Shown piece by piece: positions 11,358 through 26,662 of a DNA stretch of 64,000 bases. The position numbers and the translations under genes are program-made. This DNA is from Chrysomallon squamiferum. Lineage: Eukaryota > Animalia > Mollusca. Position 1 is the stretch's first letter, and each line of letters opens with the position of its first letter. Location of the stretch: the NCBI GenBank assembly GCA_012295275.1, contig CM022676.1, positions 15,996,001 to 16,060,000 of the forward strand, read 5' to 3'. The notes below the pieces were generated by a model, which was not told the DNA's origin, did not search any database, and saw only the letters and a program-made list of their open reading frames with translations.

Positions 11358-11424
11358 ATGCGGACAGCAATTTCATTTTTCTGTTTTCTTTATATAAATA
11401 TTTTCATTCCACACTCGAGTACTG
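11358..11424 (+). CDS. SRCR-Ig-FN3 gene (copy 1), signal-peptide exon MRTAISFFCFLYINIFIPHSST
   Basis: ATG at 11358, hydrophobic core, phase-1 donor G|GTAAGT; the same 67-nt exon recurs at 40065-40131 (-) and 41589-41655 (+). Confidence 0.8.
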
Positions 11425-11974
11425 GTAAGTTAAATCTAAACTAATTTCATATATTTGTTTTTCTTAAGAGTATTGTTTGAAAATTATAATTTAGTATTAG
11501 TGCCAGTAGCTGTGGTTGTTGTAATAGTAATAGAATAAGGAAATATAATAGTCGTAATAGTAATAATTGTAAAACTAGCAACAGTAAAACTTATTCTAGA
11601 ACTAGTAATTACACTAGTAGCTCTAGTAGCACAAGGAACAAAAACAGCACAATAGCAGTTATAGTAAAACAAAAATACGTTTAGAAGTAATAGGTTGGTA
11701 GAAAAAAGGTGATGACGAAAACACAGTAACAGTTTTAATAATATTAAAATAGCTGTGATCAAATTAATGTTAAAAATACTAATTATTGGCATTTATAACA
11801 ACACTAGATATATAACACAATCTCATGTCACTTTAATTTTATTACAGAATTACGTTCTTTACAAAAGAACATTGAAATATGTGTTTATTGACATTTATTT
11901 TCCTTTGTTCTTTTCTTTCGAAGAAATTATACTATTCTAAATCACTGATCATATTTAGTATGTTATTATTTCAG

Positions 11975-12119
11975 TACGAGTACGGTTAGTAAATGGAAGA
12001 GGAAAACCAACACAAGGACGAGTTGAGGTTCAAGTAAACGGGACGTGGGGAACAATTTGTGATGATTATTTTGACGCAAATGTGGCTTCTGTTTTATGTC
12101 ACATGTTAGGATTTAGTCG
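11975..12119 (+). CDS. Copy 1 SRCR1 (type A), N-terminal exon
   Basis: ttcag| [47 protein letters not shown] |gtaatt; 145 nt, phase 1 to 2. Confidence 0.93.
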
Positions 12120-12503
12120 GTAATTGTTTTGTTTATATGCTTACTTACTTTTTTCTTTCTTTTGTATTCCTTATTGTTAAGCAAAAATATTATTCGTAGA
12201 AATAATTTTACACAGAATCAAAATTAGTGATGGTGTATATGTCACTTTGTTTTTGACTACTACTACTACTACTACTACTAATAATAATAATAATAATAAT
12301 AATAATACAATTACAATAACCCTAGCAATATTTACTCTACCCTTTTGGCATCAAAACATTATTCTATTAAATGTTGTTGAAATTAGTTAGAAAGTAAGGA
12401 ATCACTTCTGAAATCTAGGTCTAAAATGATGTTGTTGATTGCATTTTATAAACCATGTTGTATACTGTTCATTTTACTGTACACATTTTTCATTTTATTT
12501 AAG

Positions 12504-12673
12504 TTTTAATGCTACATCATATCAAAGAGCTCACTTTGGACAAGGCACTGGGCAAATATGGCTTGATGATCTGAGATGTGATGGAGATGAAGACAGTGTT
12601 GAAAATTGCTCATTTCCTGGCTGGGGGAAACACGACTGTAGTCACAGGGAGGATGTTGGTATCAGCTGTCAAT
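12504..12673 (+). CDS. Copy 1 SRCR1, C-terminal exon
   Basis: [52 protein letters not shown] bounded, phase 2 to 1. Confidence 0.93.
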
Positions 12674-13203
12674 GTCAGTTTACACGTGTCATTTTATTTT
12701 ATTTTATTATTTCACTTACTTGCTCATCATTCTTGCTGTCCAAAAGATTACATTTGCAAATTTGATGTTATATGTTTGATCGCTAGAAAAAATGGCCTCA
12801 GTAATAGCAGAATATACTGTAACAATTTCAAGCTGATCGTTAAAAAGGACATGCAGTGACATACGGAATTCAGTCAATTTATTCAAAACAGTGATAGTTT
12901 TAGCAACTGAACTGGACTGAGCTGTTTATCATTTACAGATGTCAGGGTTCGTAGGTTTTGAGTGCACATCTTTGATTAATGCCTCCTAATGGTATTAATA
13001 ATTTAAGAAAAAATAAAATCAAATAACATCAGGAAATCGAGAAATAATTTCCCTACCGACACGGTATAATCTGAAATTGCAATGAGATTCACGTACGATT
13101 TAATATATGTAATTGGTCAGCAAAAATAATAAGAAATTGCTGTGAAATTTGTATGTAATGATTACGGAAACACCGGAATGAAATATTTCATCCTCCATTT
13201 CAG

Positions 13204-13348
13204 TGTCTATCAGACTAGTCAATGGTGGAGATAATCTAACACAGGGACGAGTTGAGATCAAACTTAACGATACATGGGGAACTGTCTGTGGTGACAGATT
13301 TGACGACAAAGACGCAGGCTTTCTCTGTACATTTTTAGGATTCAGTCC
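13204..13348 (+). CDS. Copy 1 SRCR2 (type B), N-terminal exon
   Basis: [47 protein letters not shown]; 145 nt, AG/GT. Confidence 0.92.
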
Positions 13349-13495
13349 GTAAGATAGTCTTACCTTCAGTTAAGGAGCACATTTATATTTGTTACACAAT
13401 GTAAAGTAAAATCTGAATTATCTCGTACTACAGCTTGATGAATATTTCTACTAATGAATATCATACAACTCAGATTGTGTTTTTATAAATCTTAG

Positions 13496-23182: not shown

Positions 23183-24167
23183 GTAAGTTCCCGATTCACA
23201 GATAAACATAAAACATTAAATAGAGAAATAATATGTCAAACAAAGAAAAACATTAACATAAACATTAAATCCCGGCTTTACATTTTTAATTCCTCTGGAA
23301 AAAATATGTTAAATGAGAGCATGATAATAAAATGTATAAATATAGTAAATTAATATATTCTTCTTCCTGTTCTATTTTCACTCGCATTAAAATTATTATT
23401 TGAACTTTATAACCAGCACTACGTTTTTAATGTAGTTATCTTGTTTTGGTTGAGATACAGATCCAAACCAGTAATGTTTAATCAATGTTAAATGCCTGTC
23501 ACAATAACTCTATTTCTTCATCATATTTTAAATTATATTGCAGTTTTTTCTCTATTCTGCTCTGGAATTGTAAGATTATTCGAACCAGGATGTCTTTCTA
23601 AGAGTTCAAATGAGTGACAGTTTTTTGTAGAATCTACTTCAAATATTTAAGTGATATCATCATTTGTTTTTGAAAGTTCATTACTTTTTTTTTTTTATTT
23701 ATTTTCAAATTCTACTTGTACGGTCATAAGCGAAATTCTCGTCATGTTTAACTGAATATTCAGAGGGAACTGGAGAAACGTGTCTGACTAGAAAGTGTTG
23801 TAGATGTGCTGACACTGATTACATATCGTGTTGTCAGTACTTGTATGAAAAACTTCAGCCTTATTTTGTTATAGCGATACACAAATAAACATTTTTTATA
23901 AATGTCTTTCCTACATTAAGTGATCATGAACAATATTTTCCTTTGAGGATCTTTCTACGTTAATTCTAATTTACTAGAATATGAAAGCGAAAGTTAAAGT
24001 ACTGTAGACAATGCTTTTATCTGCATAACATACACGCATACACAAATATTTTTTGAGTAGTTATCACTACGCGCTGTAGAAAATTCAATTATTAGTGTTT
24101 ATCTGTCTAATCTCCCATCTCAACTGTCTCTGATTCATCGTGTAGGAAATGTTTTCTGTCATTTCAG

Positions 24168-24446
24168 ACCAAACTTCTATCACATCTTTGACGTTAAACT
24201 CAAATTCTACAATGATAACAGTTGATGAGCTGACTCCCATGACTCTGAGATGTGAAGTTGACAGTAATCCAGCATCTCACATCAAACTGTTAAACCGATC
24301 TCAGATTCTACGTGAAGTGAACAACTCCAAGTCAGTGGAGTACAGCTGGAATGAAGCTGGATGTCTGGATACAGGATTTTACACTTGTGAAGCAGGAAAC
24401 AACATCAAGTCTGATGTCAATCAAAGTGTGCAGCTTGTTGGTAAAT
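24168..24446 (+). CDS. Ig-like domain 2 exon
   Basis: MTLRCEVDSNPAS...CLDTGFYTCEAGN...VGK; phase 1-1 (alternative donor at 24440). Confidence 0.9.
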
Positions 24447-25163
24447 GTAAGATATCAACACCAGTTATTGCTTTCTGATAAAAAAAAAATAATGATAATA
24501 AATAAATAAATAAATAAATAAAATAAATTGGAAAAAAAGGAGCTGATAAAAGCAATTCGTAATTCCAACGTTCATTTAATAACCCTTTGAACTAGTTTCT
24601 CCGCGTGTGTTTTTTTTTAAAAATATATATGTATATCTCTGCGTACGTGTTGTTTGTGTGTGTTTACGAGTATGTAAGTTAATATGTGCCAATATGACTT
24701 TATATTCATGTTCTTAACTTAGTGTATCAGTGTATACCGTAATGTATGTGTGTCTATGTGACTGTACATCAAGCTGTTTTACTGCGTGTTTGTGTGTAAC
24801 TCAGTATATGTGTGTATGCTAAGGTACAATCATGTTTGACTTTGTATATGTGTAATACAATATTTTGTGCATGTGACTGTATGTTTCCTTTGTTTTATTG
24901 TGTCTAAGTGTTTATAATTTAATATGTGAATAGCTGAGTGTAACCTTCATATTCTTTAGCTGTGTATGTTTCCAATACTCTGCAATGTTTGTGTTTATTA
25001 TTTGTGTTTTTTTTTTTTAATCTTACACTTGACACCAAATGACCAAAACAAAAATATGTGATGTTAAATTAAACAGTTCTGTCTTTCATTAGTCCAAGTA
25101 ATTACACTAAAGGACTATGCAGTTTTTTATTTAAGTATATTATTTATCTATTTATCGTCTCAG

Positions 25164-25472
25164 GTTCTCCAAGACTTGATCATCGAGTTTCATTCCACGG
25201 AAAGATTAAAACAGCAATCTACATTAACTTGACTCTGAACGTGTCAGTAATAGCGAATCCAGAACCCGTTTTCTCCTGGTACAAAGTTACAGACAAAATC
25301 CCCGTAAGACTGGGTGCTGGCAGCTCAGTCTTTAATGAGAGTTATGCTTCAGCTGTTGGTTATTACACTTTGTACAATGTTCAAACAGAAGATTTTGGCG
25401 TGTATCTCGTGAACGTGTCAAATGGAGACTCGTCGACAGATCTTCTTGTGACGCTGTCGGTTGACACAGACG
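25164..25472 (+). CDS. Ig-like domain 3 exon (lacks the canonical B/F-strand cysteines)
   Basis: SPRLD...LNVSVIANPEPVFSWYK...NVQTEDFGVYLVNVSNG; phase 1-1. Confidence 0.88.
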
Positions 25473-25857
25473 GTAAGAAAACTGATTCTCGTTTGCGTAT
25501 GAATAATGGTTATGTGTACGTGCGAATACTTGTTTCTTTTTTTTCTTTCTTTTTTCTATCGTTATGTACGTTCCTACGTAAGGTTGAACGTTTGTGTTTA
25601 TATATATATATATATATTTACGAATGTATATTTGTATGTATGCATTTATGTGTGCATGCGTGTATAACTGTATGAATGTGTATGTGACTATGTGTGTGTA
25701 TTTGTGTGTGAATGAATGTATGTGTGCATATATGGATGTGTATTTGTATAACATTAAATAAATAAATGGATAATCAAATGAATGAATGAATGAATGCAAC
25801 GATCAACGCAACTGAATACGGTTTAAAACAATTTTCTTCTATTTTATTATTGAACAG

Positions 25858-26154
25858 GACTTCCGACTGTTCCATCTGATGTCAAAGCATACCGGAATGG
25901 TCCAACTTCTTTGTGTGTTTCCTGGACTGAAGAGTTCAATGGGGGACATGGACAATGGTTTTTAGTCCAGTATCGTTTTAACACGACGTCGACGTGGACG
26001 AACGCTGACGAATTCCTAGAAGCAGGAAACCAGTCTACGCACACTACCGAACTGAGCGAGCTGGAGAGAAACAGACGTTACTTGGTGCGGGTTGTGGCGT
26101 GTAACACACTCGGATGTAGAGGCGAGACGACGCAGTTAAGTGTGTCACTTGAAG
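25858..26154 (+). CDS. Fibronectin type III domain exon
   Basis: LPTVPSDV...VSWTEEFNGGHGQWFLVQYR...LERNRRYLVRVVACNTLG; phase 1-1. Confidence 0.92.
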
Positions 26155-26550
26155 GTAAAAACAAAATATGTGACACCACACACTGAATCAAGTCTTAAGT
26201 AGCAATTTGGGTTTTTGAGTTATGTATAATTATGTTAAATGAATTATGACTTAAGTTTCATTGTGTTCGATTGTTTGCTTAAAAGAAAATAATATTCCAG
26301 TATGACGTAACAAATGAATAAATGAATCTTCCTTCGTTATACCTATCAATAACTCCATCTGGCTGTCTCTGTGCCTCTCTATATGTTTGAGTATATGTAC
26401 ACATACTTACACACGTGTCCACCTCTCCCTCTCTTTCACTGTATGAATACGTCTGTATGTCTGTATTTCTTTATGTCTGTATTTCTGATTATCTCTGTAT
26501 ATCACTCTGAGTTTAAAAAAAAAAGTATTATCTGATTAATCTGATTGCAG

Positions 26551-26662
26551 GATTCTGGGGATATTACTTGTATAAAAATATGCTGCACACATTTATCTCA
26601 CGCTATTTAAAAAAATTCTGACAAAAACACGAAAATGTAAACATCAAGAAATCTGATTCAGT
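26551..26662 (+). CDS. Candidate post-FN3 exon, GFWGYYLYKNMLHTFISRYLKKF* (stop at about 26621)
   Basis: ttgcag acceptor and GTGAGT donor; phase compatible with FN3 exon; no homology support. Confidence 0.4.

What the first reader, a model, noticed from the sequence alone, without database searches (positions are those of the whole stretch)
11358..26662. Chimeric protein: seven SRCR domains fused to a nephrin-like Ig-Ig-Ig-FN3 cassette
Seen: hand splicing gives signal peptide, SRCR x7, Ig x3 and FN3 (roughly 1,150-1,200 aa), all domain junctions in phase 1. Established: six-Cys, two-exon SRCRs are group A; the GRVE[V/I] motif resembles the DMBT1/SALSA bacteria-binding region; Ig followed by an FNGG-type FN3 is typical of nephrin/sidestep-like stalks. 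Inference: exon shuffling produced a pattern-recognition molecule with an architecture I do not recognise from characterised genes.
Basis: partly seen in the sequence, partly recalled or inferred. Interest (0 to 1): 0.8.

Follow-up and report, generated by a model that had tools for sequence, protein, structure and literature searches.

The report
Snail scavenger-immunoglobulin hybrid receptor, broken copy
A gene likely from a deep-sea vent snail lines up six microbe-binding-type (SRCR) repeats in front of an immunoglobulin-fibronectin stalk, a pairing also present in one predicted membrane receptor of a related snail, but this copy carries two reading-frame breaks and no membrane anchor was found, so it is likely a decaying duplicate of a lineage-specific immune receptor family.

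Summary
The domains are real, but the 1,150-1,200 aa protein is not encoded as assembled. There are six recognisable group A SRCRs. The seventh is a dead relic. SRCR2 has +1 nt and SRCR5 has -1 nt, so canonical splicing stops after 251 aa. No transmembrane exon was found after FN3.

The fusion itself is likely real and older than this species. Gigantopelta aegis XP_041372561.1 is signal-SRCRx5-Ig-FN3-TM-tyrosine tail, with a homologous SRCR/Ig junction, and its SRCR and Ig domains group with the window's. The stalk is not nephrin. It belongs to a G. aegis-type expanded Ig-FN3-TM receptor family (25 of 25 hits, none with SRCR).

All five SRCR copies or fragments in the window are broken. RNA contigs show a paralogue spliced Ig2-to-Ig3. 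An SRCR-to-Ig splice was neither seen nor excluded.

Best reading: a decaying paralogue of a peltospirid receptor family in which SRCR arrays replaced the outer Ig domain. SRCR+Ig/FN3 mosaics are already reported in sponges and cnidarians, and fish records hold SRCR+Ig proteins. The scan had not found this on other DNA. Verdict: new variant of a known kind, interest 0.42.

The parts
11358..11424 (+). ATG plus signal-peptide-like leader exon (22 aa, phase 1 out)
   Evidence: conserved in copies B and C with a GTAAGT donor; signal-peptide status judged by eye
11975..12673 (+). SRCR1 (exons 11975-12119, 12504-12673), intact, 6 Cys; the only domain with all six SALSA-type cation ligands (DD, DD, D, E)
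   Evidence: ligand positions from PMC7043408 passages, mapped by motif register
13204..13672 (+). SRCR2 (13204-13348, 13496-13672); exon b has 1 extra nt just before the donor, shifting the frame
14797..16407 (+). SRCR3 (14797-14941, 16232-16407), intact
16973..17647 (+). SRCR4 (16973-17117, 17472-17647), intact frame; cation site 2 lost (KY for DD)
19006..19517 (+). SRCR5 (19006-19150, 19343-19517); exon b lacks 1 nt in an A-rich run near 19470; duplicate of SRCR2 (86% aa)
19916..20834 (+). SRCR6 (19916-20060, 20659-20834), intact; duplicate of SRCR3 (85% aa); phase 1 out, compatible with Ig1
21677..22408 (+). SRCR7 relic (about 21677-21822 and 22219-22408), SRCR1-type, non-coding
22928..23182 (+). 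Ig1 (phase 1-1); nearest relative is the SRCR-adjacent Ig of G. aegis XP_041372561.1 (49%)
24168..24446 (+). Ig2 (phase 1-1); 67-85% identical to the G. aegis Ig-FN3-TM family
25164..25472 (+). Ig3 (I-set-like, no cysteines; phase 1-1)
25858..26154 (+). FN3 (phase 1-1), 41-53% identical to the G. aegis family; last exon with homology support
26551..26662 (+).
33207..40131 (-). Mirror paralogue B: leader plus SRCR1-4, exons 96-100% identical to gene A, 2-nt loss in its first SRCR exon (stop at codon 69); runs into the 200-N gap at 33007-33206
41589..47053 (+). Paralogue C: leader plus three SRCRs with in-frame stops and frameshifts; no Ig exons

Best explanation
Exons for a leader, six SRCR domains, a dead seventh, three Ig domains and one FN3 domain lie in order on one strand and likely form one gene of a vent-snail (peltospirid) receptor family, in which SRCR repeats likely replaced the outer Ig domain of an expanded Ig-FN3 membrane receptor; this copy has two frameshifts, no membrane anchor was found for it, and it is likely a decaying duplicate. 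SHOWN: domain content and order, phase 1-1 modules, the two indels, the dead SRCR7, homology of every module to G. aegis proteins, a G. aegis model with SRCRx5-Ig-FN3-TM-tail, and spliced RNA of a paralogue across Ig2-Ig3. INFERRED origin: one phase-1 shuffling event before this species split from G. aegis, followed by unequal crossing-over that multiplied SRCR units (SRCR2/5 and SRCR3/6 are duplicates) and whole genes, most of which then died (birth-and-death). INFERRED mechanism of intact members: a type I membrane protein whose glycosylated Ig-FN3 stalk holds the SRCR array away from the cell. The outermost SRCR would bind acidic microbial or matrix surfaces through Ca2+-bridged Asp/Glu sites, as SALSA does. 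Tail YxxL motifs (APYDTL twice and TVYENL in the G. aegis protein) would recruit SH2 phosphatases and damp the response, by analogy with oyster CgNCAM1. Odds: fusion is a real gene architecture about 0.85; this copy makes no full-length receptor about 0.65; immune or symbiont recognition is the family's main role about 0.6.
For: Of 66 SRCR6b hits, 1 carries SRCR+Ig+fn3: P0066 = G. aegis XP_041372561.1, 860 aa. Its junction DVGISCQF-GPDSVTFSP matches the predicted window junction DVGISCLNYY-GPLYFTFSP. Window Ig1 is closest to that SRCR-adjacent Ig (49%, against 27-44% for the other 34 blastp matches) and pairs with it in a 33-row tree (93/81), inside a starred clade with P0021 (96/98). All six window SRCRs group with P0066 SRCR2 and 4 (SH-aLRT 95, 44 rows, quick tree). 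Ig2's 25 hits of 65 candidates are all G. aegis, none with SRCR, and most continue into Ig3- and FN3-like domains in the same order. Only 519 nt separate the SRCR7 relic from Ig1. For decay: 5 of 5 SRCR copies or fragments in the window are broken; C has in-frame stops; one 1-nt loss is shared by three copies, so lesions here are inherited. Non-coding A/B alignments show only 13 gaps in 2,588 columns, so the assembly is not generally indel-noisy, and SRCR7's gap-to-substitution ratio (0.35-0.43) fits neutral introns of the same divergence (0.20-0.65). A/B dN/dS is 0.49. RNA run X8 has a contig whose 23-nt loose end after Ig2 matches the first 13 nt of Ig3 at 12 positions and the intron start at 4 (read by eye).
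Against: No SRCR-to-Ig1 joint appears among the 15 of 32 joints that displayed, and the RNA contigs that reach those exon edges are listed only once each. No read covers the SRCR2 or SRCR5 indels, so they may be assembly errors; the SRCR5 one lies in an A-rich run. The G. aegis protein is a single automated model (cluster of 1) with only one Ig before FN3. None of 127 Ig3 relatives carries an SRCR, so the exact SRCR-Ig-Ig-Ig-FN3 string has no database match. Window Ig1 is a long branch, its pairing with P0066 is not starred, and the bootstrap had not settled. Only SRCR1 keeps the whole cation site. The tail motifs of P0066 are ITIM-like, not canonical ITIMs (consensus recalled). No binding or signalling was tested. 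The species is inferred, not shown.
Confidence: 0.55

Rival explanations
1. This copy is functional. The two indels are assembly errors or are bypassed by skipping the phase-symmetric broken SRCR modules, giving a secreted SRCR-Ig-FN3 protein (a soluble agglutinin or decoy) of about 840-1,050 aa.
For: Skipping SRCR2, 5 and 7 leaves an open frame of 828 aa to the FN3 donor; a short SRCR2 donor at 13659 with SRCR5 skipped gives 931 aa. Ig1-FN3 exons have no stop or indel. dN/dS is below 1 in all four comparisons, 0.39-0.67. Two unreviewed scan notes mention single-copy frameshifts elsewhere in this assembly (leads only).
Against: No TM exon was found and the post-FN3 ending is a 10- or 23-residue stub. 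Non-coding A/B comparisons are indel-poor. Neighbouring copies carry inherited lesions. The listed RNA pieces on Ig1 and Ig2 mostly differ from this locus by several letters, so they look like paralogues (table 8).
Confidence: 0.27
2. The SRCR exons and the Ig-FN3 exons are two separate genes or fragments placed side by side by the local duplications and inversions.
For: The window is heavily rearranged, with mirror copies, fragments and two gaps. All 25 G. aegis Ig2 relatives lack SRCR. No SRCR-Ig splice was displayed. The 251-row Pfam table of scaly-foot snail 'DMBT1' copies lists no Ig or fn3 (PMC7142155 supplementary file 9, both parts read).
Against: Both halves point independently to the same G. 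aegis fusion protein and the junction is homologous. No leader or V-type Ig exon was matched between the SRCRs and Ig1. The gap is 519 nt and phase-compatible.
Confidence: 0.1
3. The family works in adhesion or secretion of shell and scale matrix rather than microbe sensing: SRCRs bind chitin, proteoglycan or mineral, and the Ig-FN3 stalk tethers the epithelium to it.
For: Scaly-foot snail SRCR ('DMBT1') copies are highly expressed in mantle and scale-secreting epithelium (PMC7142155 passages; supplementary file 12). SALSA SRCRs bind hydroxyapatite and heparin through the same cation site (PMC7043408 passages).
Against: Relatives carry repeated tyrosine motifs in the tail, typical of signalling receptors. 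The many variant copies and many broken copies fit birth-and-death immune loci. It is not shown that this gene belongs to the published array or species.
Confidence: 0.25

Closest known systems
Gigantopelta aegis XP_041372561.1 (RefSeq 'DMBT1-like', P0066)
   Same: Signal peptide, six-Cys SRCR array, homologous SRCR/Ig junction, homologous Ig1 (49%) and FN3 (42%); SRCR a-halves 60-72% identical to its SRCR2/4.
   Different: Five SRCRs, only one Ig before FN3, and an intact TM and tyrosine tail. The window has six SRCRs plus a relic, three Ig, two frameshifts and no TM found. It is an automated model; I found no study of it.
G. aegis expanded Ig-FN3-TM family (RefSeq nephrin-, hemicentin-, CEACAM-, syg-2-like; probably the 'CEACAM5' expansion of PMC7895826 and the 90-copy CEACAM5-like family of PMC7142155)
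   Same: Same Ig1-type, Ig2, Ig3, FN3 stalk. Many members share the 53.4-Mb contig with XP_041372561.1.
   Different: They begin with a V-like Ig and usually an extra C2-type Ig instead of SRCRs (0 of 25 have SRCR), and most have a TM. Equating them with the published CEACAM5-like families rests on names only.
Scaly-foot snail 'DMBT1' tandem expansion (65 copies in PMC7142155; 70 in PMC7736800)
   Same: Tandem SRCR genes in a peltospirid; many models end at a half SRCR, as a two-exon domain would.
   Different: No Ig or fn3 in the 251-row domain table; 0-5 SRCRs per copy; Ig-named scale-enriched genes lie on other scaffolds. No sequence comparison was possible.
Human DMBT1/SALSA/gp340
   Same: Tandem SRCRs; SRCR1 keeps the dual cation-site residues.
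   Different: DMBT1 has CUB and ZP domains (PMC7736800 passage) and eight-Cys group B domains (recalled). Here there are six Cys with Ig and FN3 instead.
Oyster CgNCAM1 (3 Ig + FN3 + TM + 2 ITIM; PMC11841013, abstract only)
   Same: Same stalk layout; binds microbes and recruits SHIP2, which is the model for the proposed signalling.
   Different: No SRCR; homology to this family was not tested.
SRCR+Ig mosaics of teleosts, hemichordates, sponges and cnidarians
   Same: SRCR arrays joined to Ig: 10 of 66 hits, of which 8 teleost, 1 Ptychodera and 1 unnamed. SRCR with Ig or FN3 is reported in PMC4772301, PMC5119243 and PMC7308585 (passages).
   Different: The ten hits lack fn3. The tuna and Ptychodera SRCRs fall outside the window clade, so the origins are likely independent.

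Membership tests
SRCR group A | Six cysteines per domain (definition recalled) | tested here: met
   6 of 6 domains (SRCR5 read with X at the break)
SRCR group A | Domain split over two exons (definition recalled) | tested here: met
   145-nt a-exon plus 170-177-nt b-exon with a phase-2 intron
DMBT1/SALSA | Eight-Cys group B SRCRs (recalled) | tested here: not met
   Six Cys; the first Cys seen in CD163 alignments is absent
DMBT1/SALSA | C-terminal CUB and ZP domains | tested here: not met
   The exons after the SRCRs are Ig and FN3; no dedicated CUB or ZP scan of the rest of the window was run
DMBT1/SALSA | Dual cation site D1019, D1020, D1058, D1059, N1081, E1086 | tested here: inconclusive
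   Complete in SRCR1 only (1 of 6), partial in the others; mapped by motif register, no structure built
Nephrin / sidestep | Orthology and a long Ig array before FN3-TM (8 Ig in nephrin, 5 in sidestep; recalled) | tested here: not met
   Three Ig only; the nearest relatives are a lineage-expanded G. aegis family with inconsistent names. No tree with true nephrin was built
Peltospirid Ig-FN3-TM receptor family | Homologous Ig1-type, Ig2, Ig3, FN3 in order | tested here: met
Peltospirid Ig-FN3-TM receptor family | Transmembrane segment and tyrosine-motif tail | tested here: not met
   No homologous exon found on the + strand, 26155-33006; present in P0066
Scavenger receptor class I-like (TM plus multiple SRCR; definition from PMC7663992 passage) | Transmembrane region | tested here: not met
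   this copy only
Pattern-recognition receptor (functional class) | Binds microbial ligands and changes a cell response | not testable with these tools
   needs binding and signalling assays
One transcription unit, SRCR to Ig | Spliced SRCR b-exon to Ig1 junction | tested here: inconclusive
   Not among the 15 of 32 joints displayed; only contigs were available

The most novel reading that the evidence does not exclude
Peltospirid vent snails have a large, unrecognised family of SRCR-tipped Ig-FN3 membrane receptors with tyrosine-motif tails. It arose by grafting SRCR arrays onto their expanded CEACAM/SIRP-like stalk and diversified by shuffling half-domain exons, with many copies in this species. 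Part of the published 65-70-copy scaly-foot snail 'DMBT1' expansion is this family, cut into fragments by gene prediction, and acts as symbiont-tolerance receptors rather than secreted armour proteins.
Probability: 0.22. Interest if true: 0.72.

Novelty: new variant of a known kind. Interest (0 to 1): 0.42.

Why it matters
If intact paralogues exist, a snail lineage that houses bacterial endosymbionts has joined two separately expanded families, SRCR binders and Ig-FN3 tyrosine-motif receptors, into one ligand-sensing receptor. That gives a concrete, testable candidate for how these animals recognise and tolerate bacteria. It would also call for a re-annotation of the peltospirid 'DMBT1' and 'CEACAM5-like' expansions, which were described separately from automated names. 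The copy in this window is probably not the working one, and SRCR+Ig mosaics have arisen several times in animals, which limits the surprise.

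Tried and rejected
No whole genome was held, so intact paralogues elsewhere could not be sought.

The FN3 homologue search found 0 hits among 58 candidates; this is weak evidence, since tblastn later showed 41-53% relatives. The Ig3 search of 1.84 billion representatives gave 127 hits, 0 with an SRCR by my own HMM; P0066 has no Ig3-type domain, so it could not appear there. The Atlas search with P0066 residues 445-860 gave only scores of 0.85 or less (chordate SRCR+Ig, NCAM-like): a lead only.

Searching for a TM or tail exon by tblastn of 18 family tails and a hydrophobicity scan hit only microsatellite translations and chance segments. 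The minus-strand 193-aa ORF at 29413-29991 had no Atlas match.

Summed contig depth is far higher on exon bins (about 5,000-15,000 in X3 and X5) than on most intron bins (about 15-1,100). The tool states this is no copy number, so I use it only as a sign of many paralogues. Low-depth bins around SRCR7 are not used as evidence. The stretches holding the SRCR2 and SRCR5 indels and Ig3-FN3 were not covered by laid reads.

The idea that SRCR7 is noisy assembly rather than a relic was tested by gap-to-substitution ratios and not favoured. The idea that Ig-named genes share scaffolds with the published 'DMBT1' copies found no support: 0 of 12 Ig-named rows in the scale-enriched list lie on a scaffold listed in the DMBT1 domain table. 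Three rows under 60 aligned columns were dropped before the Ig1 tree (32 of 35 kept). No structure or complex was predicted, because domain identity was already clear from Pfam and PDB.

Literature searches. None of the listed titles or the passages read describes an SRCR-Ig-FN3 receptor in snails; most listed papers were seen only as search listings. The supplement of PMC10855680, with the domain compositions of 1,747 SRCR genes, was not readable (43 characters held). The supplements of PMC7895826 and PMC7736800 were not read. They may bear on the not-in-print claim.

Full report
SETTING. The window is AT-rich animal DNA (GC 0.25-0.34 in 2-kb bins) with two 200-N gaps. No whole genome was held. 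The lineage is inferred from homologues: all 25 proteins found with Ig2 are from the peltospirid vent snail Gigantopelta aegis. At 67-85% for Ig2 but only 40-50% for Ig1, Ig3 and FN3, the organism is likely another peltospirid. [quoted passage not shown]

OBSERVATION. Pfam confirms SRCR, Ig and fn3 for 9 of 9 exon translations given. The protein claimed is not there as assembled. SRCR2 exon b is 177 nt against 176 nt in the mirror copy, and SRCR5 exon b is 175 nt. SRCR7 is a relic with stops and 7-16 indels per exon. Canonical splicing stops after 251 aa; without the two indels, six SRCR + three Ig + FN3 would be 1,042 aa. After FN3, no transmembrane or tail homologue was found on the + strand up to the gap. 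Because the modules are phase 1-1, skipping SRCR2, 5 and 7 leaves 828 aa open to the FN3 donor, then a 10- or 23-residue stub.

SURROUNDINGS. The gene (A) sits in an SRCR cluster: a mirror copy B on the - strand (about 90% overall, exons 96-100%) that runs into the first gap, a copy C on +, and two fragments (8837-7222 on -, 54388-54562 on +). All five are broken as assembled. B loses 2 nt in its first SRCR exon, C has in-frame stops, and C and the two fragments share one 1-nt loss. A/B dN/dS is 0.49 on 14.1 synonymous and 25.9 non-synonymous differences. Non-coding A/B alignments have 13 gaps in 2,588 columns, so the assembly is not broadly indel-noisy; SRCR7's gap-to-substitution ratio (0.35-0.43) matches introns of equal divergence (0.20-0.65). 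Only gene A has Ig or FN3 exons in the window.

IS THE FUSION REAL? The stalk belongs to an expanded G. aegis family of V-like Ig, C2-type Ig, Ig2, Ig3, FN3, TM and tyrosine-motif tail; 0 of 25 carry an SRCR. A search with SRCR6 exon b returned 66 proteins. One of them, P0066 = XP_041372561.1 of G. aegis, is signal-SRCRx5-Ig-FN3-TM with tail motifs APYDTL, APYDTL and TVYENL. It lies on the same 53.4-Mb contig as many Ig-only members. Window Ig1 is 49% identical to its SRCR-adjacent Ig, against 27-44% for the other 34 matches. It pairs with it in a 33-row tree (93/81, not starred; with P0021, 96/98 starred; long branch, bootstrap unsettled; 3 short rows dropped). P0021 has the window's Ig1-Ig2-Ig3 order and no credible N-terminus, so it may be a truncated model of the same subfamily (inference). 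In a 44-row SRCR tree all six window domains group with P0066 SRCR2 and 4 (SH-aLRT 95), apart from abalone, fish, turtle, sea cucumber and hemichordate domains. The junction sequences are homologous. Both halves therefore point to one ancestral fusion. Against this: P0066 is a single automated model, it has only one Ig, and none of 127 Ig3 relatives has an SRCR.

READS. Eleven runs were listed; four were laid, as contigs, on 19865-24475. The two non-RNA runs cover all 30 bins and show many variant contigs on SRCR, Ig1 and Ig2 exons, a sign of many paralogues but not a copy number. RNA run X8 has a 220-nt contig (7 differences) whose loose end after Ig2 matches 12 of the first 13 bases of Ig3 and 4 of 13 of the intron start (compared by eye): a paralogue is spliced Ig2 to Ig3. 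X9 has a contig ending exactly at the Ig1 donor (23182) and one starting 7 nt inside Ig1 with 125 unmatched letters upstream; what those letters are was not displayed. No SRCR-to-Ig1 joint is among the 15 of 32 joints shown, and X9 also holds intron-type contigs. The fusion splice is thus neither shown nor excluded, and the two indels were not covered.

MECHANISM. In SALSA SRCR8, D1019, D1020, D1058, D1059, N1081 and E1086 bind two cations that bridge to acidic ligands, and D1019A or D1020A abolish binding to hydroxyapatite, heparin and a streptococcal protein (PMC7043408, passages). By motif register, window SRCR1 has DD/DD/D/E, a complete site. SRCR2 and 5 have GD, SRCR3 and 6 have DN and DG, and SRCR4 has KY. 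So the outermost domain is the likely binder and the inner ones are altered or act as spacers (inference). The Ig1-FN3 part carries 14 N-glycosylation sequons. An oyster protein with 3 Ig + FN3 + TM + 2 ITIMs binds microbes and recruits SHIP2 (PMC11841013, abstract only). I commit to this: intact family members are membrane pattern-recognition receptors with SRCR tips and damping tyrosine tails, and this copy is a decaying duplicate (overall 0.55). Rivals are a functional secreted form (0.27), two separate genes (0.10), and a matrix or adhesion role for the family (0.25, which concerns function and can coexist with the decay reading).

COMPARISON WITH PRINT. Scaly-foot snail papers report 65 or 70 'DMBT1' copies, expressed in mantle and scale epithelium (PMC7142155 and PMC7736800, passages). 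The 251-row Pfam table for those copies lists no Ig or fn3 (supplementary file 9, read whole). The same paper lists CEACAM5-like (90 copies), syg-2-like (29) and nephrin-like (7) families as expanded (file 8, rows). PMC7895826 lists CEACAM5 as expanded in G. aegis (passages). Ig-named scale-enriched genes are not on the DMBT1 scaffolds, which gives no support to the idea that the published array is this family. SRCR with Ig or FN3 is reported for sponges (PMC4772301, passages), cnidarians (PMC5119243, passages) and invertebrates generally (PMC7308585, passages), and 10 of 66 hits are SRCR+Ig proteins without fn3. PMC10855680 was seen as passages and one section; its domain table was not readable. 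PMC7663992 was seen as passages. Six searches surfaced no description of this snail architecture. The group A/B definitions, the nephrin and sidestep domain counts and the ITIM consensus are recalled.

VERDICT. Observation partly confirmed; interpretation partly supported. It works like an SRCR pattern-recognition receptor on a CEACAM/SIRP-style stalk; it is not DMBT1 and not nephrin. New variant of a known kind; interest 0.42. The most novel reading not excluded is a large mis-annotated SRCR-Ig receptor family behind part of the 'DMBT1' expansion (probability 0.22, interest 0.72 if true).

Noticed in passing
window 11975-20834 against P0066: All six first half-exons match G. aegis SRCR2/4 best (60-72% against 39-50% for SRCR1/3/5), while all six second halves match SRCR1 or 3 best (43-61% against 24-45% for SRCR2/4). 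This suggests chimeric domains made by crossing-over at the phase-2 intron, or divergence of the G. aegis 2b/4b halves; abalone b-halves match about as well.
   Followed up: partly
window 29991-29370 (-), with a further ORF 29202-28789 (-): Exon-like ORF of at least 193 aa after a good acceptor. It starts with a basic cluster (QKYRKRIWRWMK), has several tyrosine motifs and a frame change in an A7 run. It could be the cytoplasmic tail of copy B beyond the gap or a separate gene; no homologue found.
   Followed up: partly
window about 31387-31560 (-): CpG-richer stretch ending in a GTAAGT donor on the minus strand; looks like a non-coding first exon or a decayed TM exon upstream of the 29991 exon (read by eye).
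   Followed up: no
window 9812-18701 / 41578-33207 and 6390-8831 / 47978-45362: Nested inverted duplications make the cluster roughly palindromic around the first gap, about 90-94% identical between arms.
   Followed up: partly
window 47796-53946 and 54781-60914: 6.2-kb direct duplicate, 95.7% identical, on either side of the second N gap; recent tandem duplication or an uncollapsed haplotype.
   Followed up: no
window 18340-18700 and 33207-33560: Intronic insert of about 360 nt with higher GC and a codon-like look, shared by copies A and B; possibly a Tc1/mariner-type transposon remnant (by eye and recall, not searched).
   Followed up: no
window 48215-48439 and 55193-55429: Self-inverted element of about 230 nt (about 80% arm identity), MITE-like, in both copies of the direct duplicate.
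   Followed up: no
P0001-P0025, P0104, P0105 (G. aegis); P0173 (Haliotis cracherodii): The Ig-only relatives carry repeated tail motifs such as SNYSSL, SNYTSL, NTYEGL and ELYENL, and an abalone relative has similar ones, suggesting an older gastropod family of inhibitory-type Ig receptors.
   Followed up: partly
window 25164-25472: Ig3 has no cysteine at all, a disulfide-less I-set-like domain.
   Followed up: no
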